From positions 1-35,897 of the forward strand of contig DAOWDJ010000006.1 of assembly GCA_030639065.1 (NCBI GenBank): DNA of 35,897 nt, given 5' to 3'. The translations under genes were made by a program, and so were the position numbers. Numbering within the stretch: the first letter of the stretch is position 1; the number at the start of each line of letters is the position of its first letter. Below are positions 14,803-35,514 of this stretch, piece by piece. The notes beneath the pieces were generated by a model, which saw nothing but the letters and a program-made list of their open reading frames with translations, was not told the DNA's origin and ran no database searches. This stretch comes from an archaeon. GTDB lineage: Archaea > Nanobdellota > Nanobdellia > Pacearchaeales > GW2011-AR1.

Positions 14803-14866
14803 CTAATAAAATACACCATCTTGAAACAATAAAGAAACTCTCATTTATTAACCTTATCAAACTAAT

Positions 14867-15424: not shown

Positions 15425-15452
15425 TATCTACCGATTAATCAAGCTAATAAGC

Positions 15453-15460
15453 TTTATATA
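15453..15460 (+). promoter_or_regulatory. TATA box tttatata about 25 nt upstream of the ATG at 15481
   Basis: Consensus gcTTTATATAat in a 56-bp divergent spacer. Confidence 0.6.
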
Positions 15461-15480
15461 ATTTACCAATAACTAATTAT

Positions 15481-16308
15481 ATGAAAAAAATCCCTCAAGA
15501 TATCATCGGAAATATAGCAATTCTAAAATTCCCAAAACGAACCCTCTTTATAATTAAAAAATTAAAGGCAAGAAAATTTCTAAAAGATCATAAAACAGTT
15601 ACCACCGTCGTGGAAAAAACTAAAGGATTTTCTGGAAAGCTTAGAACTATGGAAACAAAACATCTCGCTGGAATAAAAACAAAGCAAACAACTTACAAAG
15701 AAAATGGATGCACTTTTAAATTTAATATAGATAACTCCTATTTTTCTCCAAGACTTTCAAACGAAAGAAAAATAATCTCCGACGAAATAGTTAACCTCGT
15801 CAAAAAAAAGAATATGAAAATTGGGTCTGCCCCAACCAAGGATAATAATAAATCTGTGAGGGTGCTCGTTATGTTCGCAGGTATTTCTCCCTATCCGATT
15901 GTTATTGCAAAAAAATTAAAACAAATAAATAAAAAGGCAAAAATAATTTCTAACGAGTTAAACAAAACCGCAAACAAAGAGTCTTCAAAAAACATATCAT
16001 TAAACAAAGTCCAAGATTATATAACTCTAGTAGATGGAGATGCAAAAAAATTGCCCAATAAATTAAAAGACAAGTTTGATATTATTTTAATGCCGAGACC
16101 TAATTTGAAAGATACATTTTTGAAAACTGCTTTAAAACTTTCCAAATCTGGAACAACAATTTTCTACCACGGATTCGGAACCAAGGAAGAAGTAATAAAT
16201 GAGATTAAAAGAGGTACTGATAATAAGATTGGAAAAATAAAAATCAGAAAAGCCGGCGATATTGGAGCATATAAATTTCGTTGGCAGGCGCAATTTAAAG
16301 TTAAATAA
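15481..16308 (+). CDS. Trm5/Taw2-type (Met-10+ like) tRNA methyltransferase
   Basis: GNIAILKFP, FKFNIDNSYFSPRLSNER and the SAM-site-like VLVMFAGISPYPI. Confidence 0.7.
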   Translation: MKKIPQDIIGNIAILKFPKRTLFIIKKLKARKFLKDHKTVTTVVEKTKGFSGKLRTMETKHLAGIKTKQTTYKENGCTFKFNIDNSYFSPRLSNERKIISDEIVNLVKKKNMKIGSAPTKDNNKSVRVLVMFAGISPYPIVIAKKLKQINKKAKIISNELNKTANKESSKNISLNKVQDYITLVDGDAKKLPNKLKDKFDIILMPRPNLKDTFLKTALKLSKSGTTIFYHGFGTKEEVINEIKRGTDNKIGKIKIRKAGDIGAYKFRWQAQFKVK

Positions 16309-16310
16309 AA

Positions 16311-17621: not shown

Positions 17622-17657
17622 ACAAGATATAAATAAATATAATATATAAATCTTGTC

Positions 17658-18974: not shown

Positions 18975-19032
18975 AAAATAAAAACAAAACACAAACTAAT
19001 AAACCTTACGTAATTCAAAACTTCCTAGAAGT

Positions 19033-19252
19033 TACCTCCAAGCTCGCGAATTTGATTTTAGAATTATCGCTAATTAAGAGGATGTATAACAAAGGAGGAT
19101 AGGAGAAGTCCGAAACGAGCTCGTGTAGGTTGTCCAGCCCGAAGGGAAAGGACAGCACGATAAAGCGAAATTTTGCGTAGCGCCAGACGAGCACGAAGTT
19201 GAATGTGAAACATTCAGAATATGGTTTTCTACTTTGCCTCAGCAGAGGTACA
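19033..19252 (+). ncRNA. GC-rich structured ncRNA, best guess a miniaturised RNase P RNA (boundaries uncertain)
   Basis: CR-I-like AGGAGAAGUCCG is at 19101-19112. CR-V-like CAGAAUAUGGUUUUC is at 19215-19229. GAAGUCC (19105-19111) can pair with GGUUUUC (19223-19229) as a P4-like helix. Nested helices are GCUCGU 19119-19124 / ACGAGC 19187-19192 and GUCC..CCC-GAA-GGG..GGAC 19132-19153, plus the hairpin GAAUGU-GAA-ACAUUC 19201-19215. Confidence 0.4.
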
Positions 19253-19296
19253 CCATTTGGGTGGAAGAGAAATTTCTTTTTTCAAAAGAAAGAAAT

Positions 19297-20040
19297 CTAC
19301 CAAATTTTGAAACTAAATCTCTCATTAATAAAAGTTCCATCATTTTTCAAAACTCCAAATACATAACTTTCAACCATAATATCCACTGAACTCGGAATAC
19401 CTAGCTCTGGCTCCATATTAACTTCAGGTGAAGTTTCAGTTACAATCGCAAAATCAAAAATCGGAGGAATTTTTAATTCATTTTTTAAACTATCATAATT
19501 GCTATAATACTCTCCACTCATCTCTTCCAAAGCACTATAAGAAACAACTTGTCTCTCAATAACACTTCCTAATTCACAATTCTCCCTCTCAATATCTTCA
19601 CAACCTTCATCATCAATATCTTCATCACTAAACTCGGGAGAAAATGCAATCCTAAAAGCAGTCTCGCCCTCATGGTCTATATTCAATTTCCAACCACCCG
19701 ACCCAGTTTGCATAAGTCCACAATCAATATCATCCCCTCCTAGTTTCGTTACATGACTTTTGCCTTCAATTATCCTATAACTAAAAATTTCTTCCAATAT
19801 CTTTATAGAAAAACAATCCGCACCCCCAGAACTATCAACTTTCAAAAACATATTAGACAAATTAGTATAAGTTCTCTTTTCAAAAGAATCATGAAGCCCC
19901 GTAAGCACCGAACTAGATAAGGTTGACGAATCAGTAGGTTTCAAAGTACTAAAAAGAAAAAATACAAATCCAGTAAAAAATACAAATGCAATTATCATTT
20001 CAAGATGTGCCGCACCCTTTTTATCCATCAATCCTCTCAT
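19297..20040 (-). CDS. pilin-like protein with a class III signal (KKG/AAHLE)
   Basis: MDKKGAAHLEMIIAFVFFTGFVFFLF has a basic stretch, Gly, Glu at +5 and a hydrophobic helix. TATA TTATATAAAT lies upstream. Confidence 0.5.
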   Translation of the reverse strand: MRGLMDKKGAAHLEMIIAFVFFTGFVFFLFSTLKPTDSSTLSSSVLTGLHDSFEKRTYTNLSNMFLKVDSSGGADCFSIKILEEIFSYRIIEGKSHVTKLGGDDIDCGLMQTGSGGWKLNIDHEGETAFRIAFSPEFSDEDIDDEGCEDIERENCELGSVIERQVVSYSALEEMSGEYYSNYDSLKNELKIPPIFDFAIVTETSPEVNMEPELGIPSSVDIMVESYVFGVLKNDGTFINERFSFKIW

Positions 20041-20128
20041 TCATGGAAAACACATTCTTTATTTATATAATTATCTCTCAGTCTCAGCTCCCCTTCAGTA
20101 CTTAGCTCTCAGGTCTCAGATCTCGACC

Positions 20129-21499
20129 CTACACTTTCGGTTGTTTCATATTTAAGACTACAATAAAGATAATATTCACAATAGCTATTCCAACAATACT
20201 CAAAGCTAATAGCGTCGTAATAGTTAACCCCCCCATTCCCAGACCTGCAACATTCATAACTATAAACATCATCATTAGAACTAGAGGCGCTGCAATTAAA
20301 ATAGAAATATAAACATCCATGAAAGTGCCTGCCAAATCTATATACTGCTGTCGTTCTAATCTATAATCTACTAGAAAATTTTCCGCCTTCTTTTCAAGAT
20401 AACTTTTTAATTCGCCACCACTTGAAATATTTGTAGCCAATCCTGAAAATAATTCTGCCAATTTTCTATTTGAAATTCGTACTGCTACATTCTTCAGAGA
20501 AGTCACTAAATCATAACCATAGATATCAACCTGTGCAATTATTTTCCGAATTTCTTTACCAACATTTGGGTACTCATTAGACGCTGCGATAATCTTGAAA
20601 ATTTTTGTAGGTTCAATATTAGAACCTGCAATCGCAGCCATGTAAATTGTTGCGAAAGGTAACTCTTGAGAAATTCTCTTCTGAACAGACTTGGATTCGC
20701 TAGAAGGATACAAATAAAAAAAAGCCATAACCAAACCAGAAAGACCTAAGGGTAAAACAAAATACACCCAATTATTTAGACTAAAAGCCAATAATACTAA
20801 AAAAATTAAAAGTCCAAAAATAAAAGCAACTACCATAGAAGCAATTGCCATAGATAGATAGCTAGATAACAAAAATCGGATATTTGCTTTCTTTAATTCT
20901 TTTGCCAAATTACCAAACTGAGGCACTAACTTATCAGAATATTTCCTAAAAAATTTGTTAGACAATCTTACAAAAGAATTCGGCTTAATACTAGTTGCAT
21001 CAGGAGTTTTCTTTTTTATTTTATTAATCTTACCAATAGCCTCTTTGGACAATTTTAATTTTTTTAAAAACTCTTTTTTATCTTCCTCGTTAACTGTAAC
21101 ATAACTTTTTTCTTTTGTATTGGGTGAAACATAATTCACTCTAGCTGTTGACTTCACAGCTTTATTAGTAGTCTGATTAGGTAATTTTTCCGAACCTGTA
21201 GTTTTACTAGGAGAATTCACTTTCTTCTTATCTGCACTAATTGGCATCTTTTTCAATACGGGTAATTTTTTAGAAGACACACTATCCACAACCTTGTTAG
21301 TCCCAACAGTCGACGGCTTCATTTCTAATAATTTAGGTACACTATCATTCAATAACATCAATTGTTTTTCTAAAGCTTTTAAATTCGAATAGTAAAATCT
21401 TTGATTACGCATATCACCCTGCATCGCTAATTGAACCGATCTCATATTAACAAGAATTTTTTTTTCTTGCTCAAGATTTTTTTTCAGATCTTCAAACAT
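20129..21499 (-). CDS. T2SSF/FlaJ-type platform protein with a ~230-aa K-rich N-terminal extension (start moved to MFEDLKK)
   Basis: C-terminal half: LPFATIYMAAIAGSNIEP...LKNVAVRISNRKLAELFSGLATNISSGGELKSYL, flanked by TM helices. SD GGAGG lies upstream of the ATG at 21499. Confidence 0.72.
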   Translation of the reverse strand: MFEDLKKNLEQEKKILVNMRSVQLAMQGDMRNQRFYYSNLKALEKQLMLLNDSVPKLLEMKPSTVGTNKVVDSVSSKKLPVLKKMPISADKKKVNSPSKTTGSEKLPNQTTNKAVKSTARVNYVSPNTKEKSYVTVNEEDKKEFLKKLKLSKEAIGKINKIKKKTPDATSIKPNSFVRLSNKFFRKYSDKLVPQFGNLAKELKKANIRFLLSSYLSMAIASMVVAFIFGLLIFLVLLAFSLNNWVYFVLPLGLSGLVMAFFYLYPSSESKSVQKRISQELPFATIYMAAIAGSNIEPTKIFKIIAASNEYPNVGKEIRKIIAQVDIYGYDLVTSLKNVAVRISNRKLAELFSGLATNISSGGELKSYLEKKAENFLVDYRLERQQYIDLAGTFMDVYISILIAAPLVLMMMFIVMNVAGLGMGGLTITTLLALSIVGIAIVNIIFIVVLNMKQPKV

Positions 21500-21625
21500 T
21501 TTTCGACCTCCAGATAGAATAAATGTTTCCATGAAACGTGTCATGCGTTACTTCAAACATTTTCCAGCCTCCAAGATGGACAAATGTTTCTATGAAATAT
21601 CTCGCATATTACTTCAAACATTTTG
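21490..21625 (-). repeat. 61-bp tandem duplication of the SD/start region of the platform gene
   Basis: CTTCAAACATTTT occurs at 21490, 21551 and 21612. Each unit carries GGAGG and ATGTTTGAAG in gene sense. Confidence 0.85.
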
Positions 21626-21784
21626 TTCCCCAATATCTTTGCCAATTTGATTATGTAAATCAAAAATGAAAGTCCTCAATTTATTAATTTTATCTGTTTC
21701 TTTGTTTGCAACAACTTTTTCCAATTGCAATACTGCATCACTCATAGAATCCACCAACTGTCCAACAAGTTCAATATCTACCAT
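21614..21784 (-). CDS. small helical protein, 56 aa (start moved to MVDIELVG)
   Basis: The ORF-track N-terminus (21785-21838) reads through the 85-bp repeat. The ATG at 21784 has the repeat-borne SD upstream. Confidence 0.45.
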   Translation of the reverse strand: MVDIELVGQLVDSMSDAVLQLEKVVANKETDKINKLRTFIFDLHNQIGKDIGEQNV

Positions 21785-21978
21785 AGACAAAAATCTCCGA
21801 TTTTTTTCTCGCAAGGACTTTGTCATTGCATAATACAAATAGCTTTTGTTTCAAAATTTTATATACCATAGACAAAAATCTCCGATTTTTTTCTCGCAAG
21901 GACTTCAATCACCAGATTACCTACTGGGTTGTCATTGCATAATACAAATACCTTTTGTTTCAAAATTCTATCTACCAT
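21782..21978 (-). repeat. tandem 85-bp promoter-leader repeat, two units, the distal one with a 24-nt insertion
   Basis: Unit starts are at 21782, 21867 and 21976. The insertion caatcaccagattacctactgggt at about 21906-21929 sits in the loop of the unit hairpin. Confidence 0.9.
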
Positions 21979-22071
21979 CTTTAGATAATAAAAGAAAATA
22001 TCTTTATTAATGTTATCAACACTTAGGTCCACAATTTTTTATTCCCAATTCTAGATTATGCACTCTTAATT

Positions 22072-23604
22072 TTATCTCGTTACTCCATACTTCTTTAAAA
22101 TCCCAGCAGGATTTTTTGAATAGTCATTTATGACCCTCTGAACATCCTCATAACTCAAAACTTTATTTTGAAATAACGCATATAATAGTCTTGCTCGAAT
22201 TTCAAATTCTTTTTCTATATTGTCTTTCGAAATACCTACTTTTTCAGCAATCTTATCAAAAATCTTACTATTCTTCGCGTGATAGAATTTATCATCTGCG
22301 GGATTCCATTTAAATGGAGTATTTGTCAAAGTCGTCCCATCCGCTTCAACACTTATAACTTCGACAATCTCCCGTAGTTTTCGCGTCTCCTTGCCATTCA
22401 CAATAGCATGAGTCATAATCATCATTGCATCCAATCCATTAACTAACATCGGACTCAAACTAATTGGTGGTGTTTCTAGCCTACGAACAATTGAGTCAAC
22501 AGAGTCACCATGCATTGTTGAAATCGAAGCATGCCCCGAAGCCATACCCTGAAATAAAACAGATGCTTCTTTACCCCTAACCTCTCCAACAATCACATAA
22601 TCTGGGTTCTGTCTAAATGAACTTTTAAGTAAAGAATCCATATTAATCTCTCCGGCACCCTCACTAGAAATTCCAGTTCGAACAACCGACGGTAACCAAT
22701 TTTCCCTAGGTAAATTTAATTCCCTAGTATCCTCAATCGAAACAACCCTATTCTCTTGAGGAATGAAAAATGCCATAGCATTCAATAAAGTTGTCTTACC
22801 AGAAGCCGTCCCACCAACAATCATAATATTAGATTGATACTGCAACAAAATCCAAAAATAAGCTAACATCTCAGGACTCAGCGTATGGAAACCGATTAAT
22901 TGTGTTGGAGTCCAAGGTGTTTTAGTAAACTTACGAATAGTAAACGTAGGTCCTTTCGAACTAATATCCTGAGTATATGTTGCATTAACCATAGACCCAT
23001 CAGGCAAACCTCCATCCAGAATTGGAGAAGCATAAGAAATATAACGCCCTGTTTTTTGTGCAAGTTTTTCAACGAAACTAGATAACTTATTCATATCATT
23101 AAACTTTACAGTTGTTTTAATGTTTCGAAAAACCCGATGCACAATATAGATATATTCCCCCATTCCATTACACTCGATATCCTCAATAAAATAATCCTTC
23201 ATCATTGCTTCTATCTCATTTAGCCCAACAAAATTTCTGTATAAATAATAAAACATTTTTTTATAACTCTCTTTTTCAATAGTCAAACCTAATTCCGAAA
23301 TAATCAGCTTAGCTGTTTTATCGATATAATCCAATAAATTTTCTTTAGTATTTTTTATACCAACCATTTTCACATTTACAACTTCCCTAATTGTCTGCTC
23401 AATTTTAGCCAAATTTCCTTTTTCCTCTTCAGAAAGTATCGGCTCTTCAATATCATAAATAACTTCACCAGATTTTTCATCATAATAAATATGGATAGAA
23501 ACATATGGAACAATAACCATATATCTAACATCTATCTTTATCTTATCATCAAACTTAGGAATCATTGGGGCTTTCGGATTAGAATTTATATTTATATCAC
23601 CCAT
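22072..23604 (-). CDS. type IV filament assembly ATPase (FlaI/PilB/VirB11 family)
   Basis: Walker A GGTASGKTTLLNA, then VVSIEDTRELNL and PDYVIVGEVRGKEA. Confidence 0.92.
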   Translation of the reverse strand: MGDININSNPKAPMIPKFDDKIKIDVRYMVIVPYVSIHIYYDEKSGEVIYDIEEPILSEEEKGNLAKIEQTIREVVNVKMVGIKNTKENLLDYIDKTAKLIISELGLTIEKESYKKMFYYLYRNFVGLNEIEAMMKDYFIEDIECNGMGEYIYIVHRVFRNIKTTVKFNDMNKLSSFVEKLAQKTGRYISYASPILDGGLPDGSMVNATYTQDISSKGPTFTIRKFTKTPWTPTQLIGFHTLSPEMLAYFWILLQYQSNIMIVGGTASGKTTLLNAMAFFIPQENRVVSIEDTRELNLPRENWLPSVVRTGISSEGAGEINMDSLLKSSFRQNPDYVIVGEVRGKEASVLFQGMASGHASISTMHGDSVDSIVRRLETPPISLSPMLVNGLDAMMIMTHAIVNGKETRKLREIVEVISVEADGTTLTNTPFKWNPADDKFYHAKNSKIFDKIAEKVGISKDNIEKEFEIRARLLYALFQNKVLSYEDVQRVINDYSKNPAGILKKYGVTR

Positions 23605-23664
23605 CTCTCTCCAACATAACTAGGTTATATAAAACTATTTCTTTGACTTCCTTTTCCACTACTA

Positions 23665-24192
23665 TTAAATACCACTAAAATCAATCACAATATTACCATC
23701 CGCATTTCTCCCCGTATTTTCAACTGCTAATTTATATGGAGTCGGAGCAACATCTAACTGTTTTATTCCAGAAGTTTCATTATTATATCTGATATCCAAG
23801 TCATATTTTAACTCTAACTTAATCATCCAAGGTTTTCCTTTCGTTGTAGTTACATTTATTCTCCCTACCGAAATCGACATATCTTCTTCACTATACATGA
23901 AACTCGAATCCAAAATCCACAAAACGGTGTCTTCTTCCACGTCAATAACTAATGCCCCTTTCCTAATATCTAAATCTATAATACGCCTATTTCCTGCTGC
24001 CCTTAAAACCTCATAAACCTTATTATCAATATTACCTAAAGCTTCAATAGACTGCTCAATCATCGCTTCATCTTTTTTTTCATTTATCTTAGGTAAAGCA
24101 GCTGCTAAAACCAAACCAATAATAGCCAAACCAATCAAGGTATAAATTACAGTCTCAACCCAAATCTGCCCCTTTTTCCTAATCATCCTCAT
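23665..24192 (-). CDS. pilin-like protein, KG/Q...E5 class (start moved to MRMIRKKGQ)
   Basis: RKKGQIWVETVIYTLIGLAIIGLVLAAAL. Confidence 0.62.
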   Translation of the reverse strand: MRMIRKKGQIWVETVIYTLIGLAIIGLVLAAALPKINEKKDEAMIEQSIEALGNIDNKVYEVLRAAGNRRIIDLDIRKGALVIDVEEDTVLWILDSSFMYSEEDMSISVGRINVTTTKGKPWMIKLELKYDLDIRYNNETSGIKQLDVAPTPYKLAVENTGRNADGNIVIDFSGI

Positions 24193-24273
24193 AACTATAA
24201 AATAGAGATTATGTTTATATACTTTCCGAAGAAAATATAGAAGGGTCACAAGACCCAATTTAAAAATAATTAA

Positions 24274-24795
24274 TTAACATTCCTTAAGAACCATGCTTGA
24301 AGAAGATTCACAGGTTTTCTCTGTATTGCCTACAACAACAATAGGAGCGATAGTAATTCCATCTATATCTGCACCATCAACCACGGAACTAGTGTCCAAT
24401 ATAAAGACTCGCTTTTCGTTAGCATTAGGTAACTTATCTACAGTCATAGGATCTGGATAAAGCGTTGTCGCATCAACCAGATTAAACGACTCTGTGCTTC
24501 CAGCAACAGAAATTAAAATCTGAACATCTATCAAATCAAAAGACTTAGATCCACGTTTTATCTGAAAAGAAACATTGTCTCCATTTGCACCAACACAATT
24601 ATACCCCTCGTCAGCCAACTGAAGTTGGGTTACTGCATCCAAACAAATCGTTCCAGATTCAAGTTGGTCACCAACCATAGGAATAATAGCGACCCAAACA
24701 ATTGTAACGGCAGCGACGGTAATTAAAATTATTAAAACCGTAGCAACTATAGCACTTATACCCTTTTTCCCCAAATTTACTTTTTTATTATTCAT
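24274..24795 (-). CDS. archaeal type IV pilin (Pilin_N/DUF1628-type N-terminus)
   Basis: GKKGISAIVATVLIILITVAAVTIVWV. SD GGGGGG upstream. Confidence 0.8.
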   Translation of the reverse strand: MNNKKVNLGKKGISAIVATVLIILITVAAVTIVWVAIIPMVGDQLESGTICLDAVTQLQLADEGYNCVGANGDNVSFQIKRGSKSFDLIDVQILISVAGSTESFNLVDATTLYPDPMTVDKLPNANEKRVFILDTSSVVDGADIDGITIAPIVVVGNTEKTCESSSSMVLKEC

Positions 24796-24804
24796 TTTAC
24801 CCCC

Positions 24805-24926
24805 CTTTCAATATTTTCTAAATATTGCCATGATAGTTCTCTGAACTTTCTTTCAAATTTTTTATTGTAAAAAATTTGTATGATACTTTCCTAAAGTTTC
24901 TTTCAATATTTTCTAAATATTGCCAT
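24805..24926. promoter_or_regulatory. two exact 27-nt repeats, each containing the 19-bp palindrome CAATATTT-TCT-AAATATTG
   Basis: The exact copies are 24805-24831 and 24900-24926, with palindromes at 24809-24827 and 24904-24922 (spacing 95 bp). The proximal copy abuts the SD of the pilin gene. Confidence 0.6.
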
Positions 24927-24950
24927 AAACTTTTCCAAAAGTACTTTCAA

Positions 24951-25412
24951 TCAAAGCGTAACTCCTGCATCCATACAAGTGAAAACTTTATTTATACTTT
25001 TACCTTTAACTTTGCCAATTAACGCAGGATAAACGATTATTTTATCCGGTACCGAACCATCTGTCATTTCAAAATTGATATATCCGGTAACACTTCCTCC
25101 TGCATCAACCTGAATATCAAATTTCCTTATCTCTGAATTACCAACAGAATCGAACAACTTAATCTCTAAATGACGAATATCAACATTCCCCCTATTAATA
25201 ATTTCCACTTCTTCATCCTCATATACACTAGCCTCAAAATTAATTGATGAGCAAGACTCTTCAATAGAAATTCCAAATTTCTCGACATGCTCACTAACAA
25301 AACCCCTAGCCCATAAAAAAATCATAGTCGCTAAAACCAAAACCAACAAAATCATTAAAACACTAGCAATCACAGGAGAAAGTCCACGCTCATTTTTAAT
25401 ACTCTTTTTCAT
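24951..25412 (-). CDS. archaeal type IV pilin (Pilin_N/DUF1628-type N-terminus)
   Basis: NERGLSPVIASVLMILLVLVLATMIFLW. Confidence 0.85.
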   Translation of the reverse strand: MKKSIKNERGLSPVIASVLMILLVLVLATMIFLWARGFVSEHVEKFGISIEESCSSINFEASVYEDEEVEIINRGNVDIRHLEIKLFDSVGNSEIRKFDIQVDAGGSVTGYINFEMTDGSVPDKIIVYPALIGKVKGKSINKVFTCMDAGVTL

Positions 25413-27046: not shown

Positions 27047-28327
27047 CTAATAATCTCTAGTATTTTTATCTAAAAAACCCACAAGTGCAATCCCTTCTTT
27101 GTCGCCTGCCACCTTAAAACACTCTCTTGCACCATATTTTCTTTGCCAGCTATTATCACTTCGTAGAGCCATATTTCCCATTCTTTTCGCATCATCCTTC
27201 ATCCCCGCGAAAACATAATAATTAGCAGCTTCATCATATCCCTCTTTTTCCTCTGCTATACTAGCCGCCCTCAAAGCCTTATCAGCTGGGATTCGGGTTT
27301 TTATCATCTCGTAAAGCTTTCCAAATTGTGAGACATTGGATCCAACTTTCGCAAAATCTTTTTCTTCAAGTAAATTATTCGCATATTGCGCTATTCTCTT
27401 TTTTGCTTCTTTTACACTATGCTGTGATAAATAATCGAATGCTATTTTAACTGATGACATTATACTCCCAGGAGAATATGAATCTCTTGCGCTTTCAATC
27501 TTTGTCGATTCAGATAATATTTGCCCCCCCTTTGCTCTATATTCCTTTGCACGAATCATTTTACCAGCTCTTTTATATAAACCTAAAGCTTTGTAATACT
27601 CCCCCTGCTCAAAAAATTCATCTCCAAACTCTCTAAAATCTCGAGGAACAAAAGAATGTTTTGTATCATCCATATATTTTACCACTTTATCAAATAACCA
27701 ATCATTTTTTCTTCCATTTATGATACTCTTTGCCTTATCCATTGGCATCATTAAATCTTGACCTTCATAAAAGTTAAAAGCATCTTCAAATCTTCCTTTA
27801 TCCAATGCAATTCCAGAATATTTCTCCCTATCTTCGTCAGATAACTTCTTCCCAGCAACAGCTAAAAATAAAGTCCCCTCTTCGCTCATGCCTTCATTCA
27901 ATAGTTGGTATGCCATCTCCTCTGCTCTAATTACTGCCCCACCTGCATTTAAAGCTCTGGCAGCCCCCCAATAGTCAGAATGTTCTTCAGAGATCATATC
28001 CTCTGCAAGCTCAATAGCTATATGCTTAGGCAATTTATCATGAGCTGTTAATATCCTCAAAAAATCCTTCCCCACTTCCTTCTCCTCATTAGAATCACCA
28101 TGAAAATAAGAAACTCCAAACTCAAGAATCTTATCCCAGTTTTGTCCAAAAAATAAATAATGAGCAGCCGATTTAAAATCTCCCCTGAGAAATGTTTCCT
28201 CACCAGCCTTAAGATAAATCTCTGAAATTTGATCTGCAGGAAACATTGACATATCAATAGAATTCTTCCGCTCAAATTCTTTCGATCTTTCAACCAAAAC
28301 ATTTACGATTCCTTCTAAGTTTCCCAT
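27047..28327 (-). CDS. helical-repeat (TPR/Sel1-like) protein, hypothetical (start moved to MGNLEGI)
   Basis: Recurrent G-x-[FY]-x-x-A-x-x-[FY]-[YLF] motifs: GDFKSAAHYLFFG, GRFEDAFNFYEG, GEYYKALGLYKRAG, GYDEAANYYVFAG. Confidence 0.55.
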   Translation of the reverse strand: MGNLEGIVNVLVERSKEFERKNSIDMSMFPADQISEIYLKAGEETFLRGDFKSAAHYLFFGQNWDKILEFGVSYFHGDSNEEKEVGKDFLRILTAHDKLPKHIAIELAEDMISEEHSDYWGAARALNAGGAVIRAEEMAYQLLNEGMSEEGTLFLAVAGKKLSDEDREKYSGIALDKGRFEDAFNFYEGQDLMMPMDKAKSIINGRKNDWLFDKVVKYMDDTKHSFVPRDFREFGDEFFEQGEYYKALGLYKRAGKMIRAKEYRAKGGQILSESTKIESARDSYSPGSIMSSVKIAFDYLSQHSVKEAKKRIAQYANNLLEEKDFAKVGSNVSQFGKLYEMIKTRIPADKALRAASIAEEKEGYDEAANYYVFAGMKDDAKRMGNMALRSDNSWQRKYGARECFKVAGDKEGIALVGFLDKNTRDY

Positions 28328-28458
28328 AATAAAAAACAAACATAATCTCAATTTATAATAAAATGTATTCTCTATTATATATATTATAAATAATCACTTT
28401 TGTAACCCCTAGAACATGAATCCAAAAACTTTATAACCTTCAAATACCACTATTATTT

Positions 28459-29008: not shown

Positions 29009-30310
29009 ATGGGTGACGTAGATATATTTTTCAATGCAAAAACTTTCGCAGTCATAGGTGCATCCAGAGATGATAAAAAAGTTGGACACGTAGTTTTTAA
29101 AAATCTTTTACATTCAGATAAAAAAGTATTTCCAGTAAATCCAAAAGCAGAAAAAATTCTTGAAAACCACTCATACAAAGATATGTTCGAAATACCCTAT
29201 CAAATAGATTGTGTAGTAATAGCTATCCCAGCAAAATTTGTACCACTAGCCTTAAGAGATGCACAAAAATTAAAAGTAAAATCTGCTATTGTTCTCTCAG
29301 CTGGATTTTCAGAAATCGGAGAAACAGAACTTAGCCACCGAATAATTAAAATTGCAGATGAAGCAGATATAAAACTACTCGGACCAAATTCCTATGGTTT
29401 TATCGACCCGTCACAAAAACTCAACACAACCTATTTTGAAGGTATACCAAAGCCGGGAAATATAGCATTTATTTCACAATCTGGGGCAATAGGTTCAGCC
29501 ATTCTAGACACAGCAACAAAATTATCTGGCTTTGTTTCAATCGGCAATTCTGCACAGCTAGATTTCTCCGACTTTATAGAATATTATTCCAGAGATAAAA
29601 ATACGAAGGTAATTACAATCTATCTTGAATCACTAAAAAAAGGACGTGGAAGACAATTTATTGAAACCTGTAAAAAGTGTAGAAAACCTATAGTAGTTTT
29701 AAAATCTGGAAAATCTCAGACTGGACAGAAAGCGGCACAATCTCACACTGCAGCCCTAGCTTCCGAAGCCAGAGTTTACGATGGAATTTTAAAACAAGCA
29801 GAAACAATCCAGGTGAACTCAATTAAACAATTACTCGCTGTAGCAAAAATCTTAGAGAAATTCCCTAAACTAGGAAACAAGGCTGCAATAATAACAAATG
29901 CTGGGGGATTAGGAGTCCTAGCAACCGACGCATGTGAATCAAATAATATTAAGATTCCTTCATTATCAAAATCTCTAATTGCAAAATTAAATACATTCTT
30001 ACCAGAAAATTGGAGCCACAATAATCCAATAGATTTAGTTGGTAATGCTCTAGCAGAAGACTACAAAAAAACTATTTCACTAATAGAAAAAGAAAATTTC
30101 GATTTTTCAATTATACTTTTAACACCACAGAAAATGACAGAAGGACTACTAACTGCTAAAGCTCTAATGGAAATGAAAAAACCCGTATTTGCTTGCTTCT
30201 TAGGGGGGTCTCAAGTTAGAGAAGCAAAAAAATTTATGGCAAGATTCGGAATAATTAATTTCGTGGACCCAAAAGAAATGTGTGATACTTTAGGGAAAAT
30301 TACGAAGTAA
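29009..30310 (+). CDS. acdA: acetyl-CoA synthetase (ADP-forming), alpha subunit
   Basis: CoA-binding FAVIGASRDDKKVGHVVF, then LLGPNSYGFI, AFISQSGAIGSAILD and the catalytic-His region SHTAALAS. Confidence 0.85.
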   Translation: MGDVDIFFNAKTFAVIGASRDDKKVGHVVFKNLLHSDKKVFPVNPKAEKILENHSYKDMFEIPYQIDCVVIAIPAKFVPLALRDAQKLKVKSAIVLSAGFSEIGETELSHRIIKIADEADIKLLGPNSYGFIDPSQKLNTTYFEGIPKPGNIAFISQSGAIGSAILDTATKLSGFVSIGNSAQLDFSDFIEYYSRDKNTKVITIYLESLKKGRGRQFIETCKKCRKPIVVLKSGKSQTGQKAAQSHTAALASEARVYDGILKQAETIQVNSIKQLLAVAKILEKFPKLGNKAAIITNAGGLGVLATDACESNNIKIPSLSKSLIAKLNTFLPENWSHNNPIDLVGNALAEDYKKTISLIEKENFDFSIILLTPQKMTEGLLTAKALMEMKKPVFACFLGGSQVREAKKFMARFGIINFVDPKEMCDTLGKITK

Positions 30311-30391: not shown

Positions 30392-30844
30392 TTATTCGTC
30401 TTTATCTAAGCATCCCACTTCTTTTTTAAATTCTGTCTCAAAAAAATCCTTAGCCCTTCTCATAAATTCATATGTTTTTTTAAAATCCTCTTCGGGTGTA
30501 TAAATTTTTCCATCTCCTTTGATCCCTTTATCTCCTCTTAAACCATGAAGATTTTTTACTATATGAGAATATCTATCCATGATAAATCCTACCTGCGATT
30601 CATCTAAATCTCCCTTTTCATTTACATCTATTAGTAATTTTGCAAGACCCTCTGTCTTTGGAACATTCTCAAAATTAATCTCGCCAGATCTAATCTTCTT
30701 TAATACCTTAACCTCATTACTAAAATAAATCTCCACATTCTCAATATAGTCTTTAGCGATAGGACTGACTTCTATCCTCTTATCATGAAAATAATCACAA
30801 AGACGTTTTGAACAATGTGCAACAGCGTGAAAATATGACCCCAT
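30392..30844 (-). CDS. hypothetical protein
   Basis: 150-aa ORF between acdA and acdB. No motif recognised. Confidence 0.5.
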   Translation of the reverse strand: MGSYFHAVAHCSKRLCDYFHDKRIEVSPIAKDYIENVEIYFSNEVKVLKKIRSGEINFENVPKTEGLAKLLIDVNEKGDLDESQVGFIMDRYSHIVKNLHGLRGDKGIKGDGKIYTPEEDFKKTYEFMRRAKDFFETEFKKEVGCLDKDE

Positions 30845-30894: not shown

Positions 30895-31479
30895 CTATTC
30901 CAATTCAACCCGAGCATCAATAACCAAACTCCTTTTTTCCCCAACAATTACTGGATTCAAATCTAATTCTTTAATATCAAGTCTCGCTCCTAAGCGTACA
31001 ACCTCTTCAATCAATATAACAAATTTTCCCAAATCATAACTTTTCCCTCGAACCCTAAAAACATCTTTACCTTCCAAATCTAATATCATCCCTTTAATCT
31101 CGGCTTCGCTAACAGGCAACGATCTAAAAGTCACATCCTTTTTCACTTCAGCAAAAATCCCACCAAACCCAACAACTAACAATTTTCCAAAAACTTCATC
31201 ACTTTTAATCCCTACAATCATCTCAACGCCCTCAAAAGTCTCCTGTGCAATAATCTTATTTTTAGGAAATTTCTTATGTAGCTCTCTTAATTTCTTTTCA
31301 GCATCATCTAAATTATCACACCGGATAACCGCTCCTAAATCAGTTTTATGTCCACTAACATCTGCCTTCAGAAAATATGGAAATTCAAACATCTTCAAAT
31401 CTTCATGTCTAGTTACAACTTTCCATCTAGCCATTGGCAAATCTTTTACAATATTAAAACTATCAATCACTCCCTTCAT
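30895..31479 (-). CDS. acdB: acetyl-CoA synthetase (ADP-forming), beta subunit (ATP-grasp); start moved to MKGVIDS
   Basis: FPYFLKADVSGHKTDLGAV and GVEMIVGIKSDEVFGKLLVVGFGGIFAEVKKDVTFRSLP. The ATG at 31479 lies about 25 nt from the palindromic TATA at 31501-31508. The alternative start is 31521. Confidence 0.78.
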   Translation of the reverse strand: MKGVIDSFNIVKDLPMARWKVVTRHEDLKMFEFPYFLKADVSGHKTDLGAVIRCDNLDDAEKKLRELHKKFPKNKIIAQETFEGVEMIVGIKSDEVFGKLLVVGFGGIFAEVKKDVTFRSLPVSEAEIKGMILDLEGKDVFRVRGKSYDLGKFVILIEEVVRLGARLDIKELDLNPVIVGEKRSLVIDARVELE

Positions 31480-31500
31480 AAAATAAATCACAAACAAAAC

Positions 31501-31508
31501 TTTATATA
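31501..31508. promoter_or_regulatory. TATA box tttatata (core TTATATAA is palindromic), equidistant from the divergent acdB and oxidoreductase start codons
   Basis: The centre is about 25 nt from the ATG at 31530 (+) and about 25 nt from the ATG at 31479 (-). Confidence 0.6.
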
Positions 31509-31529
31509 ACTTCCCTCCCATAATTCATC

Positions 31530-33053
31530 ATGAGGTTGAATATTATTATAGGTGGCAAAGCAGGTCAGGGCATAAATAAGGTTTCTGAAATCGTAGCAAA
31601 TACCCTAAACAAATACGGCTACTTTACATTTAACTATCGCGACTATCAATCTCTAATACGAGGTGGACATAATTTCAACACCCTCTCAATTTCAGACACA
31701 CAAATAGAAAGCCACGAAGCCAGAGCCGATATCTTAGTTGCTCTAGATGAATGGACAATAAAAGTCCACAAACAAGCTTTAAAGAAAAATGGAATTATAA
31801 TCACAGCAGAACAATTTAAGGACGAAAAACAAAACTTAAATGTCACCCTCGCTGGAGCTTTAATAAAAATTCTCGGTATCCCATTAAAAGAACTAGAACA
31901 GGAAATCAAATCACAATTTAAAAAATATGAAGATGCACTTACCTCAACTAAAAAAGGATTTAAATCACAAAAAAGAATTCATCAACTGAAAAAACTCGAT
32001 AATAATCCATCAACTCTGTCTGGAAGTCAAGCAATTGCAATCGGTGCAAAAAATTCTGGACTTGATTTATACATAGCATATCCCATGACCCCAGCTACAA
32101 ACGTAATGAACGAACTTGCAGAAAATCAAGTTAAAGATAAACTAATGGTATTCCAAGCAGAAAACGAAATAGCAGCAGCAAACATGGCGCTTGGTGCATC
32201 CTTTGCAGGAACAAAAACAATGACAGGAACATCTGGCGGAGGATTCGACTTAATGGGAGAAGCACTTTCTCTCCAAGGCATTTCCGAAATTCCACTAACA
32301 GTTTATCTCGCTTCACGACCAGGACCAGGGACGGGAGTTCCAACTTATACCGCACAATCAGATTTAGATATTGCACTCCGAGCAGGACATGGAGAATTCC
32401 CAAGAATTGTTATAGCACCGGGCAATTCAGTTGAAGCAATTGAAAAAACATCTGAAGCATTATTTCTAGCAGAAAAATTTAGAACACTGTCTGTAATCCT
32501 CGGTGATAAACATCTAGCAGAATCTGAATTCTCCTCTATTGAAACATCCTCTAAAACTCCAAAATCTAAAATCATAAGAAAAATCCCGGGCAAAAATTTG
32601 GTAAAAAACTCATCATACGAAATTGACAAATTTGGAAATTCCACCGAATCATATACCCTAACTAAAAAAAATGTAGAGAAACGATTGGCAAAATATGGAA
32701 CTTCGAAAAAATTTATTGAGAAAAAATTTGAAATGATAAAAATTCACGGCAATAAAGATTCAAAAACTTTAATTATAGGATGGGGCTCAACCTCTGGTGC
32801 AATTAAAGATGCAATTAAAGACCTCGACGCTAAATTTCTCCAAATCCTTTACATGAAGCCATTATCAAATCAAATCAAAGAAGAGATGGAAAAAGCTGAT
32901 AAAATAATTCTTGTTGAATGTAATGTTACTGGACAACTTGGTCGATTACTCCGAGAAAAAACAGGAATCAAAATAGAAAACCGACTCTTAAAATACAACG
33001 GGAGACCTTTTCATTCAGACGAACTAAAAAATTCAATTGAGAAGATATTATGA
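31530..33053 (+). CDS. 2-oxoacid:ferredoxin oxidoreductase, fused gamma-alpha subunit
   Basis: Gamma-type N-terminus MRLNIIIGGKAGQGINKVSEI, followed by alpha-type SGSQAIAIGAKNSGLDLYIAYPMTPAT. Confidence 0.88.
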   Translation: MRLNIIIGGKAGQGINKVSEIVANTLNKYGYFTFNYRDYQSLIRGGHNFNTLSISDTQIESHEARADILVALDEWTIKVHKQALKKNGIIITAEQFKDEKQNLNVTLAGALIKILGIPLKELEQEIKSQFKKYEDALTSTKKGFKSQKRIHQLKKLDNNPSTLSGSQAIAIGAKNSGLDLYIAYPMTPATNVMNELAENQVKDKLMVFQAENEIAAANMALGASFAGTKTMTGTSGGGFDLMGEALSLQGISEIPLTVYLASRPGPGTGVPTYTAQSDLDIALRAGHGEFPRIVIAPGNSVEAIEKTSEALFLAEKFRTLSVILGDKHLAESEFSSIETSSKTPKSKIIRKIPGKNLVKNSSYEIDKFGNSTESYTLTKKNVEKRLAKYGTSKKFIEKKFEMIKIHGNKDSKTLIIGWGSTSGAIKDAIKDLDAKFLQILYMKPLSNQIKEEMEKADKIILVECNVTGQLGRLLREKTGIKIENRLLKYNGRPFHSDELKNSIEKIL

Positions 33054-33880
33054 AACCAAATCTAACAACACAATCAGAAAACACATGGTGTCCCGGCTGT
33101 CCAAATTTTATGATATTAGAATCCATAAAACAAACTCTAACAAAACTAATTGAATCAGGAGAACAAAAACAAACAGATTTCGCAATCACAACAGACATAG
33201 GATGTCACGCAAAAATATTTGATTACCTAAACCTATCGGGAATTTATTGTCTTCATGGGCGTGCATTGCCAACCGCAATCGGAATGAAACTCGGAAACCC
33301 AAACTTAAAAGTTTTAACATTCGCTGGCGACGGAGCGGTTTATGCAGAAGGAATCTCACACTTCATCCACGCATTCAAATATAACGCAGATATGACACTA
33401 ATCCTCCACGACAACCAATCCTTCTCGCTAACAACCGGACAACCAACACCAACATCTCAGCAAGGATATACATCAAAATCACAATCTCTTGGAGTATTTG
33501 ACAAACCAATGAATCCAATTAAATTAGCTCTCGCATCAAATGCAACCTTTATAGCTAGAACAAATGCAAGAGACATCCCGCACATGGTTGAAATATTTAC
33601 AAAAGCAATTGCACATAAGGGCTTTTCATTTGTAGAAGTAATTCAAGACTGTCTAATCTTTAACCTCGACGCCAATAACAAAGATAAACAAATGTATAAA
33701 ATAAAAGATAATACAAACAAACAAAATGCAGAAAAACTAGCTGATGAATTCGACTACAATTCAAAATCGGGAAAAATCCCACTCGGCATAATCTACCAAT
33801 CAAAAGAACCAACTCTCGAAGAAAAATGGCCACAACTCAAAGAACTTCTTAATAAAAAAACTCTATGGAAAGAAAAATAA
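33050..33880 (+). CDS. 2-oxoacid:ferredoxin oxidoreductase, beta (TPP-binding) subunit
   Basis: WCPGCPNFMI and the TPP motif GDGAVYAEG...HDNQSFSLTTGQ. A 4-nt ATGA overlap links it to the alpha gene. Confidence 0.9.
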   Translation: MKPNLTTQSENTWCPGCPNFMILESIKQTLTKLIESGEQKQTDFAITTDIGCHAKIFDYLNLSGIYCLHGRALPTAIGMKLGNPNLKVLTFAGDGAVYAEGISHFIHAFKYNADMTLILHDNQSFSLTTGQPTPTSQQGYTSKSQSLGVFDKPMNPIKLALASNATFIARTNARDIPHMVEIFTKAIAHKGFSFVEVIQDCLIFNLDANNKDKQMYKIKDNTNKQNAEKLADEFDYNSKSGKIPLGIIYQSKEPTLEEKWPQLKELLNKKTLWKEK

Positions 33881-34719
33881 ATAATAAAAATAACATTCCA
33901 AAAATAGAAGAGCTTCTCAAAAAAGAAAAATGCGTGGCACTTGTCGCACCATCATTTGTAACAGATTTTTCATATCCCTCAATTGTATTGCAACTAAAAA
34001 AACTTGGCTTCGACAAAGTTGTCGAATTAACTTTTGGAGCAAAAATGATCAATAGAGATTACCACAACCTCTTAAAAAAATCCAAAGGACTTATCATTTC
34101 ATCACCATGCCCAGGAATAGTTTCAACAGTAAATAATAGATTCCCAAAATTAAAAAACAAAATTGCAAAAATAGACAGCCCCGTAGTAGCAATGGCTAAA
34201 ATATACAAAAAACATTTCCCACAACACAAAACTATTTTTTTATCACCTTGCGATCTTAAAAAACCAGAGGCAGAATCATGTAAGTATATTGATGGAATAA
34301 TAGATTATACTCAACTAAAAGAACTCTTCTATAAATATAAAATAAAAAAACATAACATCGGAAAAAGGACACAATTCGACAACTTTTACAACGACTACAC
34401 AAAAATATATCCACTATCGGGAGGCTTAGCGAAAACCGCACAAATAAAAAAAATAATTGATGATAAACAAATAAAAATAATTGATGGGATCAACGATGTG
34501 ATAAAATTTCTTGAAAACCCAGATCCAAAAATCAAATTTCTCGACTGCCTATTTTGCACCGGAGGATGTATAGGCGGACCACATACAAATCAAAAACTAA
34601 CTATCAAACAAAAACATAATAAGGTTATACAATACCTCAAAAAAGCAAAAAAAGAAAATATACCCGAAGACAGAAAAGGATTAATAGACAAAGCGAAAGG
34701 TTTGAAATTCAATTCATAA
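33865..34719 (+). CDS. minimal [FeFe]-hydrogenase-like protein (H-cluster domain only, 284 aa)
   Basis: The three H-cluster motifs occur in order: SSPCPG (Cys82), LSPCDLKKPE (Cys129, Lys132, Glu135) and FCTGGCIGGP (Cys231, Cys235). Also SPVVAMAKIYKK and SGGLAKT. It overlaps the beta-subunit gene by 16 nt. Confidence 0.72.
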   Translation: MERKINNKNNIPKIEELLKKEKCVALVAPSFVTDFSYPSIVLQLKKLGFDKVVELTFGAKMINRDYHNLLKKSKGLIISSPCPGIVSTVNNRFPKLKNKIAKIDSPVVAMAKIYKKHFPQHKTIFLSPCDLKKPEAESCKYIDGIIDYTQLKELFYKYKIKKHNIGKRTQFDNFYNDYTKIYPLSGGLAKTAQIKKIIDDKQIKIIDGINDVIKFLENPDPKIKFLDCLFCTGGCIGGPHTNQKLTIKQKHNKVIQYLKKAKKENIPEDRKGLIDKAKGLKFNS

Positions 34720-35514
34720 TCTAAATAACTTAACAGCATTATCAAAAATCTGTTCTACAACTTCCCCTTTGCTTAATCCCTTTATCTTAGCAATCTCTTT
34801 TATCGTAACAGCAACATTCGCTGATTCGTTCCTTTCCCCCACAACCGGAGACAAATAAGGTGCATCAGTTTCTGTTAATAATTGTTCAGGCGGAACCATT
34901 TCAACAAGCATCTTAAAATGTTCAAGTCGAGTAATTACAGGAGGAATAGAAAAACTCCATCCCAATTCAACACATCTTTTAATTAAAGATTTCTTTCCAT
35001 TAAAACAATGCATCAAAACCCTCTTGCATCCAGCCTCCTCCATCATACCAATCGCATCCGACTCTGCCTTCCTAGAATGGATAATCAATGGTTTATCAAT
35101 TTTCTTCGCTAATTCAATCACTTTAAAAAAAACTTTTTTCTGCTCTTCATTATATCCCTCCACAACTTTATAATCCAAACCACATTCTCCAATTGCAACA
35201 CATAAATCTTTGTTCTCTTCAATCCACCTCAACTCATCATCCACATCAAATGTCTCAACATGCCGAAGCATTCCTTCCTCGCCAGAATCCCCAATCTTTT
35301 CCATAATAGCGTCAATGGGATAAATCCCAAACGAAACTTTCACAACATCAGAATATTTTTTAGCAATCTCTAAAGATTTACGATTCGTCGACGGATTGAC
35401 TCCACTAGTAATAATAAACTTCCCACTTGCCTCCTTAAACCTAGAAATTACTTCATCCAAATCTTTCTCAAATCTCTCACTTTCTAAATGTGCATGAACA
35501 TCAATTAACTTCAT
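34714..35514 (-). CDS. tatD: TatD-family metal-dependent hydrolase
   Basis: DVHAHLE, GECGLDY, IHSR, HCF and ETDAPYL. Confidence 0.92.
   Translation of the reverse strand: MKLIDVHAHLESERFEKDLDEVISRFKEASGKFIITSGVNPSTNRKSLEIAKKYSDVVKVSFGIYPIDAIMEKIGDSGEEGMLRHVETFDVDDELRWIEENKDLCVAIGECGLDYKVVEGYNEEQKKVFFKVIELAKKIDKPLIIHSRKAESDAIGMMEEAGCKRVLMHCFNGKKSLIKRCVELGWSFSIPPVITRLEHFKMLVEMVPPEQLLTETDAPYLSPVVGERNESANVAVTIKEIAKIKGLSKGEVVEQIFDNAVKLFRL

What the first reader, a model, noticed from the sequence alone, without database searches (positions are those of the whole stretch)
33865..34719. 284-aa [FeFe]-hydrogenase-like gene overlapping the oxidoreductase beta gene, with the proton-relay Cys position replaced
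The protein carries the three H-cluster signature motifs in order and with the right spacing: Cys82, Cys129-x2-Lys-x2-Glu, and Cys231-x3-Cys235. It has no ferredoxin-like F-cluster domain and is much shorter than the algal minimal enzymes. In motif 1 (canonical TSCCP) it reads SSPCP. The first Cys, which established work assigns to proton transfer to the bridging amine, is therefore Pro. Minimal [FeFe] hydrogenases have been reported from DPANN-type archaea, so the family itself is probably not new. The motif-1 substitution and the 16-nt overlap with the oxidoreductase operon deserve attention. No hydE/F/G maturase genes are in the window.
Basis: partly seen in the sequence, partly recalled or inferred. 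Interest (0 to 1): 0.7.

Follow-up and report, generated by a model that had tools for sequence, protein, structure and literature searches.

The report
Ultraminimal archaeal [FeFe] hydrogenase gene
This is an intact gene for a very small, single-domain hydrogen-producing enzyme of a kind already described in tiny DPANN archaea, and its "missing" proton-relay cysteine and its position next to a 2-oxoacid oxidoreductase are normal for that family.

Summary
ORF 33865-34719 (+) encodes 284 aa and overlaps the 2-oxoacid:ferredoxin oxidoreductase (OFOR) beta gene by 16 nt. It is a bare H-cluster domain (Pfam PF02906, E=2e-33). All four H-cluster cysteines are present (C82, C129, C231, C235), along with K132 and the APS and SP motifs. 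Pro81 occupies the CpI Cys299 position.

None of this is peculiar to this gene. About 230 GTDB species of Pace-/Woesearchaeota encode 275-310 aa orthologues. At that position they carry V, P, A, T or S, never Cys. They also replace M353, M497 and most of the group A proton pathway, as the bacterial sensory (group C/D) hydrogenases do.

Greening et al. 2024 defined this family as group E. It averages 286 aa and occurs in DPANN archaea. They reported different proton-transfer residues, OFOR genes often adjacent and maturases mostly absent. One member was shown to bind the H-cluster and to favour H2 production.

The window places the gene in a fermentation island with the two ADP-forming acetyl-CoA synthetase subunits and a two-subunit OFOR. 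No HydEFG or ferredoxin gene is in the window.

Verdict: a new member of a known kind, of low to moderate interest.

The parts
33865..34719 (+). hydA: 284-aa H-cluster-domain-only (group E type) [FeFe] hydrogenase
   Evidence: ORF. Pfam PF02906 E=2e-33. The AF2 model matches CpI, TmHydA and TkHydA H-domains at E~1e-12 with TMq 0.60-0.65. 874 homologues were found.
33946..33954 (+). A28-P29-S30, equivalent to CpI A230-P231-S232, which contacts a CN ligand of the [2Fe] subsite
   Evidence: Near-invariant in 120 homologues (A 119, P 120, S 119) and conserved in long relatives. The role of the CpI residues is established knowledge.
34099..34116 (+). Motif P1, S-S-P81-C82-P-G. C82 is a [4Fe-4S]H ligand (CpI C300). 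P81 occupies the proton-relay Cys299 position.
   Evidence: phmmer alignment to CpI. Column counts are P78/A21/T18/V2/S1, with C82 invariant.
34243..34269 (+). Motif P2, S127-P-C129-D-L-K132-K-P-E135. C129 is CpI C355, K132 is K358 and S127 replaces M353.
34543..34581 (+). Motif P3, D227-C-L229-F-C231-T-G-G-C235-I-G-G-P. C231 is CpI C499, C235 is C503 (the bridging Cys), L229 replaces M497 and D227 corresponds to CpI E495 and TamHydS E289.
   Evidence: The TamHydS residue equivalences come from PMC11803613 and PMC10407848.
33865..33880 (+). 16-nt overlap between the 3' end of OFOR beta and the 5' end of hydA, implying translational coupling
   Evidence: The genes overlap by 1-55 nt in 13 of 18 related species where they are adjacent.
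33050..33880 (+). OFOR beta subunit, with the TPP site and a single [4Fe-4S] cluster (candidate ligand cysteines C14, C17, C52 and C201; C67 is a fifth cysteine)
   Evidence: Pfam TPP_enzyme_C and PFO_beta_C. Best PDB match is 5B48_B, a 2-oxoacid:ferredoxin oxidoreductase beta subunit, E=1e-47. Cysteine positions.
31530..33053 (+). OFOR alpha subunit (gamma+alpha fusion). There is no delta or ferredoxin-like subunit.
   Evidence: Pfam POR and POR_N. Best PDB match is 5B48_A, E=4e-70.
30895..31521 (-). ADP-forming acetyl-CoA synthetase beta subunit (ATP-grasp), divergent from the OFOR operon
   Evidence: Pfam ATP-grasp_5. Conserved next to OFOR-hyd in L006, L010 and L019.
29009..30310 (+). ADP-forming acetyl-CoA synthetase alpha subunit
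   Evidence: Pfam CoA_binding_2, Succ_CoA_lig and Ligase_CoA_2.

Best explanation
The gene encodes an ultraminimal, single-domain [FeFe] hydrogenase of the DPANN group E type. It is made from the same transcript as a two-subunit 2-oxoacid:ferredoxin oxidoreductase and is translationally coupled to its beta gene.

Inferred pathway: OFOR oxidises pyruvate or another 2-oxoacid to acyl-CoA. The neighbouring ADP-forming acetyl-CoA synthetase turns the acyl-CoA into acid plus ATP. The low-potential electrons leave via a small ferredoxin encoded elsewhere in the genome and reach the surface-exposed [4Fe-4S]H-[2Fe] H-cluster, where they are released as H2.

Protons do not travel by the group A route C299-E279-S319-E282-R286, which here reads P81-D65-A101-N68-K72. 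They most likely reach the bridging amine through water in a shallow pocket lined by small residues (P81, S127, L229), possibly via the conserved D227.

Shown: the ORF, the fold, the ligand set, the pocket substitutions, the synteny and the family distribution. Taken from the literature: a group E member binds the H-cluster and evolves H2. Inferred: the ferredoxin link, the proton route, and maturation in vivo without HydEFG.
For: Domain and ligands. The residues that hold the [2Fe] subsite ligands in CpI are invariant or nearly so (A28-P29-S30, S105-P106, K132, C235), which argues that the diiron site is retained.

Fold: AF2 pLDDT 78.7. All top PDB matches are hydrogenase H-domains.

Family: 874 homologues, the top 120 of them 269-309 aa and from Pace-/Woesearchaeota. 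227 GTDB species loci encode a relative. Minimal forms cluster together in an NJ tree, 25 short plus one Fer4-fused.

Context: OFOR beta lies directly upstream in 18 of 80 species and within four genes in 36 of 80, overlapping in 13 of the 18. ACD alpha and beta flank the operon here and in L006, L010 and L019. A 60-aa single-cluster ferredoxin gene lies near hyd in 12 of 80 loci, and 10-16 nt downstream in L034, L058 and L072.

Literature (PMC11216029): group E averages 286 aa and occurs in DPANN archaea. The Fm enzyme holds one [4Fe-4S] cluster, binds [2Fe]adt and is biased to H+ reduction. OFOR genes are frequently adjacent in Nanoarchaeota.
Against: No HydE/F/G gene is in the 36-kb window, and the literature says most such genomes lack them, so how or whether the [2Fe] subsite is made in vivo is unknown. 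No ferredoxin gene is in the window.

The active-site pocket is the one found in low-turnover sensory hydrogenases: C299 to a small residue, M353 to S/G, M497 to L. The group D substitute relay E252 is Leu188 here, so no proton-relay side chain is identified.

I could not align this protein with the published Fm or Na sequences because the supplement is not held. In more than half of the species the gene is not next to OFOR. It follows RNase Z in 22 of 80.
Confidence: 0.75

Rival explanations
1. OFOR alpha-beta and the hydrogenase form a direct, ferredoxin-independent complex, a minimal 2-oxoacid:proton oxidoreductase. The single [4Fe-4S] cluster of the beta subunit would pass electrons straight to the exposed H-cluster. 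This is a variant of the best explanation, not an exclusive alternative.
For: Overlap between OFOR beta and hyd is conserved (13 of 18 adjacent pairs). The OFOR is the two-subunit type without a delta ferredoxin subunit. The hydrogenase has no F-clusters. No ferredoxin gene is in the window.
Against: The gene is unlinked to OFOR in about half of the species. No OFOR-beta-hydrogenase fusion appears among the 150 best representative clusters. Small ferredoxin genes sit right next to hyd in several species. The published model uses ferredoxin.
Confidence: 0.12
2. In vivo the protein carries only the [4Fe-4S] cubane, because HydEFG are absent. It would then act as an Fe-S electron carrier or partner of OFOR, like Nar1 or an apo-HydA, rather than as a hydrogenase.
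For: No maturase genes are in the window. Maturases are absent from most archaeal genomes that encode [FeFe] hydrogenases. The gene is tightly linked to OFOR.
Against: Residues that serve only the [2Fe] subsite are invariant or nearly so across a very large family, which is hard to explain for a cubane-only protein: APS, SP, K132 and the bridging C235 geometry. A group E member readily forms a defined H-cluster and is active. The protein has no N-terminal Cys cluster, unlike Nar1 (my own knowledge of Nar1, not tested against Nar1 sequences).
Confidence: 0.08
3. It is a low-turnover H2-sensing or regulatory module like the group C/D HydS proteins, whose pocket it shares.
For: Its closest long relatives are Fer4 + H-domain + FeS + PAS proteins and fusions to sigma54 activators or histidine kinases, at 31-38% identity. 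It has the same C299, M353 and M497 replacements as TamHydS.
Against: It has no output, PAS or C-terminal Fe-S domain. It is co-transcribed with catabolic OFOR and is not next to regulators. Fm is biased to H+ reduction, unlike TmHydS.
Confidence: 0.05

Closest known systems
Group E ultraminimal [FeFe] hydrogenases of DPANN archaea (Greening et al., Cell 2024, PMC11216029; representatives Fm from Ca. Forterrea multitransposorum and Na from CABMGN01 sp902385635)
   Same: H-domain only and 284 aa against a mean of 286 aa. Found in Nanoarchaeota-type MAGs. Has the four H-cluster cysteines and non-canonical proton-transfer residues. OFOR genes are adjacent and maturases are lacking locally. The nearest characterised relatives are group C/D.
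   Different: Nothing established. Direct identity to Fm and Na could not be measured. This copy has Tyr114 where 115 of 120 close homologues have Cys.
Sensory group C/D [FeFe] hydrogenases (TmHydS, TamHydS)
   Same: The same H-domain core and pocket: C299 to a small residue (A131 or A137 there, P81 here), M353 to S, M497 to L, R286 to K. The set of conserved core positions is essentially identical.
   Different: It has no N-terminal 2x[4Fe-4S] domain, no C-terminal Fe-S domain and no PAS domain. The group D relay E252 is Leu188 here. The genomic context is catabolic, not regulatory.
Group A minimal (M1) hydrogenases, e.g. Chlamydomonas HydA1, and CpI
   Same: H-cluster ligands, K358, and the APS and SP motifs. 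Ferredoxin-linked fermentative H2 evolution is the presumed role.
   Different: About 170 residues shorter than HydA1 (457 aa including its transit peptide). Only 20-22% identical to CpI in structural alignments. Lacks C299, S319, E282, R286, M353 and M497.
Nar1/NARF (eukaryotic CIA Fe-S proteins)
   Same: Pfam PF02906 fold and four C-terminal cysteines.
   Different: This protein is archaeal and has no N-terminal cluster-binding cysteines. It retains the [2Fe]-site residues. Its relatives are prokaryotic hydrogenases.

Membership tests
[FeFe] hydrogenase catalytic (H-cluster) domain | Significant match to Fe_hyd_lg_C over the full domain | tested here: met
   E=2.2e-33, covering positions 2-245 of the 245-position model. 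Foldseek hits to CpI and HydABC H-domains at E~1e-12.
[FeFe] hydrogenase catalytic (H-cluster) domain | Four Cys ligands (CpI C300, C355, C499, C503) | tested here: met
   C82, C129, C231 and C235 by alignment. All are invariant in 120 homologues.
[FeFe] hydrogenase catalytic (H-cluster) domain | Residues contacting the CN/CO ligands of the [2Fe] subsite (CpI P231/S232, P324, K358) | tested here: met
   P29, S30, P106 and K132 are invariant or nearly so.
[FeFe] hydrogenase catalytic (H-cluster) domain | H2/H+ catalysis with a bound H-cluster | not testable with these tools
   Demonstrated only for the group E relative Fm.
Group A (prototypical) [FeFe] hydrogenase | TSCCP motif with the relay Cys299, the E279-S319-E282-R286 pathway, and M353 and M497 | tested here: not met
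   The equivalents are P81, D65, A101, N68, K72, S127 and L229. The NCBIfam group A and B models score far below their cutoffs.
Group E ultraminimal [FeFe] hydrogenase | H-domain only, about 286 aa, no accessory Fe-S clusters | tested here: met
   284 aa with a single Pfam domain and no ferredoxin motif.
Group E ultraminimal [FeFe] hydrogenase | Encoded by DPANN archaea (Nanoarchaeota, Iainarchaeota) | tested here: met
   Orthologues at 51-78% identity in 80 GTDB loci. Most are titled Pace-/Woesearchaeota, Nanoarchaeota or unclassified archaeon; four titles say bacterium or Fusobacteriaceae.
Group E ultraminimal [FeFe] hydrogenase | Separate clade, sister to groups B-D; closest characterised relative is group C at about 28% identity | tested here: inconclusive
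   The NJ tree puts the query in a clade of 25 short forms plus one Fer4 fusion. Long relatives are PAS, sigma54 or His-kinase sensory types at 28-38% identity.
Group D sensory hydrogenase | Conserved alternative relay Glu (TamHydS E252) after the S-G-G motif | tested here: not met
   Leu188, invariant in the family. No Glu occurs at this column in 150 representatives.
Group C sensory hydrogenase | N-terminal Fer4, C-terminal Fe-S and PAS domains | tested here: not met
   Only PF02906 was detected.
Nar1/NARF | Eukaryotic, with an N-terminal four-Cys cluster and loss of [2Fe]-site residues | tested here: not met
   The only N-terminal cysteine is the non-conserved C23. The [2Fe]-site residues are retained. 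No comparison with Nar1 sequences was run.

The most novel reading that the evidence does not exclude
The conserved translational coupling of a delta-less, single-cluster OFOR with an F-cluster-less hydrogenase reflects a physical three-protein complex. That complex would oxidise 2-oxoacids and release H2 without any soluble ferredoxin, making it the shortest known electron path from a C-C bond cleavage to H2. The Pro, Val, Ala or Thr at the relay position would show that a solvent-exposed H-cluster needs no protein proton wire.
Probability: 0.1. Interest if true: 0.65.

Novelty: new member of a known kind. Interest (0 to 1): 0.25.

Why it matters
The gene adds one more example, in a clear fermentation island, of the smallest known hydrogenases. 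These are of biotechnological interest as stripped-down H2 catalysts.

The survey made here adds some detail to the published picture:
- The relay position is V, P, A, T or S and never Cys across about 80 species.
- Overlap with OFOR beta is recurrent.
- A 60-aa ferredoxin gene is sometimes adjacent.
- The group D substitute relay is absent.

The two open questions remain open and are not made newly testable by this window alone: how protons reach the H-cluster, and how the cluster is matured without HydEFG.

Tried and rejected
- Obtaining the Fm and Na reference sequences. The paper's supplements are not held. A literature search for Forterrea gave no sequence. Cluster look-ups of 10 minimal representatives returned no organism names. 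Placement in group E therefore rests on criteria, not on a joint tree.
- Looking for a hydrogenase-specific partner in loci that lack OFOR. The conserved upstream genes there are RNase Z, an Sm-like protein, a small basic, ribosomal-protein-like ORF and TFIIB, identified by reading their sequences. These are housekeeping genes and uninformative.
- Looking for OFOR-hydrogenase fusion proteins among the 150 best representative clusters. None was found; long hits all start the H-domain near residue 60, after a Fer4 domain.
- Looking for clade-specific conserved residues that might form a new proton relay. The conserved core is the same in the minimal and sensory forms.
- Checking a 2026 preprint on a histidine proton pendulum. 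It concerns C-terminal histidines of group A and is not applicable.
- Considering an AF2 run of a beta-linker-hydrogenase fusion. I dropped it because the tool returns no coordinates or PAE, so an interface could not be judged.
- Minus-strand ORFs inside the gene (33849-34052 and 34256-34441) are short, low-complexity and lack support.

Full report
**Observation**

The ORF list shows an ATG-initiated ORF at 33865..34719 (+) encoding 284 aa. The preceding ORF, 33050..33880 (+), ends 16 nt inside it in another frame. Homologues conserve residues K8 and N9, and no other start codon lies between the ATG and codon 8. The annotated start, and therefore the overlap, is real.

The cysteines are at 23, 82, 129, 139, 228, 231 and 235.

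**What the protein is**

- Pfam Fe_hyd_lg_C matches residues 22-239 over the whole model (E=2.2e-33, 116 bits against a cutoff of 22).
- NCBIfam models for group A and B hydrogenases match only the H-domain and fall far below their cutoffs.
- phmmer against PDB finds only [FeFe] hydrogenases. Its alignment to CpI gives the following residue equivalences.

| Role in CpI | CpI residue | This protein |
|---|---|---|
| H-cluster ligand | C300 | C82 |
| H-cluster ligand | C355 | C129 |
| H-cluster ligand | C499 | C231 |
| H-cluster ligand (bridging) | C503 | C235 |
| CN ligand contact | K358 | K132 |
| Proton relay | C299 | P81 |
| Proton pathway | E279 | D65 |
| Proton pathway | E282 | N68 |
| Proton pathway | R286 | K72 |
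| Proton pathway | S319 | A101 |
| Pocket | M353 | S127 |
| Pocket | M497 | L229 |

- An AlphaFold2 model (pLDDT 78.7, pTM 0.71) retrieves the H-domains of CpI, T. maritima HydA and T. kivui HydA as top PDB matches (E~1e-12, TMq 0.60-0.65).
- The residues that hold the diatomic ligands of the [2Fe] subsite in CpI are retained and invariant or nearly so in the family: the APS motif, the SP motif and the Lys.

**Family**

The word-indexed search found 874 homologues. The best 120 are 269-309 aa and 58-89% identical, and where named they come from Pacearchaeota, Woesearchaeota or "archaeon" MAGs. A scan of one genome per GTDB species found 227 loci encoding a relative. The 80 retained loci come almost entirely from Nanoarchaeota-type MAGs.

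An exhaustive phmmer search of 1.84 billion cluster representatives gave 1852 hits. About 30 clusters of 250-330 aa minimal forms come first. They are followed by 480-880 aa proteins whose H-domain starts near residue 60. Pfam shows these long proteins to be Fer4 + H-domain + PF04060 Fe-S + PAS, or fusions to sigma54 activators or histidine kinases. That is the sensory group C type. In an NJ tree the query lies in a clade of 25 short forms plus one Fer4-fused protein.

**The motif-1 substitution is a family trait**

| Sample | Residue at the C299-equivalent position |
|---|---|
| 120 close homologues | P78, A21, T18, V2, S1 |
| 80 GTDB species loci (motif not found in 3) | V28, P19, A15, T14, S1 |
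| 150 representatives | A, P, S, T, V or N in nearly all, including many long sensory forms; Cys in only about ten long proteins |

M353 is G or S and M497 is L almost throughout. TamHydS (group D) has the same pocket: A137, S191, L291 and K126 (PMC11803613). C299 is likewise Ala in the group C enzyme TmHydS (PMC10407848).

The Glu proposed as a replacement relay in group D (E252) follows the S-G-G motif and corresponds to a Val in group A. Here it is Leu188, which is invariant in the family. No Glu occurs at that column in any of the 150 representatives. The equivalents of TamHydS E289 and S249 are D227 and S185.

No side-chain relay can therefore be named. A water-mediated route into a shallow, solvent-exposed pocket, perhaps via D227, is my inference.

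**Comparison with the literature**

Greening et al. 2024 (PMC11216029) defined group E [FeFe] hydrogenases and reported the following:
- They are monomeric and H-domain only, with a mean length of 286 residues.
- They are encoded by DPANN phyla including Nanoarchaeota.
- The H-cluster is solvent-exposed and the loops are condensed.
- The Fm enzyme contains 4.2 Fe per protein, forms an H-cluster with [2Fe]adt, is bidirectional with a bias to H+ reduction, and has group C TmHydS (28% identity) as its closest characterised homologue.
- Only 5 of 130 archaeal genomes had a full HydEFG set.

Every feature flagged in the finding is therefore already described for the family. I could not obtain the Fm or Na sequences. 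Membership rests on meeting the published criteria, not on a joint phylogeny.

**Context and mechanism**

The upstream genes are the alpha (gamma+alpha fusion) and beta subunits of a two-subunit OFOR. Their best solved matches are 5B48_A (E=4e-70) and 5B48_B (E=1e-47), deposited as 2-oxoacid:ferredoxin oxidoreductase subunits. From my own knowledge these entries are the Sulfolobus tokodaii enzyme. This type has a single [4Fe-4S] cluster and no delta subunit. The beta subunit carries five cysteines, of which C14, C17, C52 and C201 are the candidate cluster ligands.

Divergent from this operon are the beta and alpha subunits of ADP-forming acetyl-CoA synthetase. A PEP synthase or PPDK-type gene lies at 2172-4592.

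The arrangement ACD - OFOR alpha-beta - hyd - TatD recurs in L006, L010 and L019. Across the 80 species:

| Neighbourhood of hyd | Species (of 80) |
|---|---|
| OFOR beta immediately upstream | 18 |
| OFOR beta within four genes | 36 |
| Adjacent OFOR beta and hyd genes overlapping by 1-55 nt | 13 of the 18 |
| RNase Z and other housekeeping genes upstream | 22 |
| 60-aa single-cluster ferredoxin gene within the locus | 12 |

In L034, L058 and L072 the ferredoxin gene lies 10-16 nt downstream of hyd, in convergent orientation. My reading of its sequence is that it resembles the Pyrococcus type of ferredoxin. The window itself has neither a ferredoxin nor HydE/F/G.

The best-supported model is the conventional one: 2-oxoacid, OFOR, ferredoxin, group E hydrogenase, H2, with ATP made by ACD. 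A direct OFOR-hydrogenase complex is not excluded, but it lacks positive evidence beyond the coupling.

**Verdict**

The item is an unremarkable member of a family described in 2024. Interest is low to moderate (0.25). Novelty: a new member of a known kind.

Noticed in passing
window 34204-34206 (codon 114 of the hydrogenase): This copy has Tyr114 (TAC) where 115 of 120 close homologues have Cys; the rest have S3 and A1. It is one base from TGC. The column is hydrophobic or variable in more distant minimal and sensory forms, so the Cys is a subfamily feature of unknown role. The change could be a real substitution or an assembly error.
   Followed up: partly
window 6897-7068, next to 5277-6916 (-): Two tandem 86-nt repeats (93% identical), each containing the palindrome AGAAAAAAATCTCCAGATTTTTTTCT. 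They lie immediately beside genes for OapC (5277-5654), OapB (5809-6240) and a small GTPase (6278-6916). This is a candidate replication origin region.
   Followed up: partly
L034 8837-9019, L058 8856-9038, L072 8838-9020 (and nine other loci): A roughly 60-aa single-cluster ferredoxin gene (MVKVSVDKKKCIGCGxC...CP). It lies convergent and 10-16 nt downstream of the minimal hydrogenase gene in several Pace-/Woesearchaeota species. It is the likely redox partner and is absent from this window.
   Followed up: partly
window 13972-25412 (-): A cluster with two T2SSF-like membrane proteins, a T2SSE/PilB-type ATPase, a HerA/DUF87 ATPase and an archaeal type IV pilin N-terminal domain protein. It looks like a type IV pilus or archaellum-like surface apparatus, which could relate to host attachment in a DPANN archaeon.
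   Followed up: no
window 30392-30844 (-), 27047-28351 (-), 9995-12398 (-), 16311-17621 (-): Several sizeable ORFs of 150-458 aa have no Pfam match. One of them (30392-30844) sits between the two ACD subunit genes.
   Followed up: no
representative P0137 (352 aa): One member of the minimal clade carries an N-terminal 2x[4Fe-4S] ferredoxin domain fused to the short H-domain. It may be an intermediate between the ultraminimal forms and the F-cluster-bearing forms.
   Followed up: no
window 34714-34719: The hydrogenase gene and the convergent TatD-family gene (34714-35514, -) overlap by 6 nt at their 3' ends, which leaves no room for an intergenic terminator.
   Followed up: no
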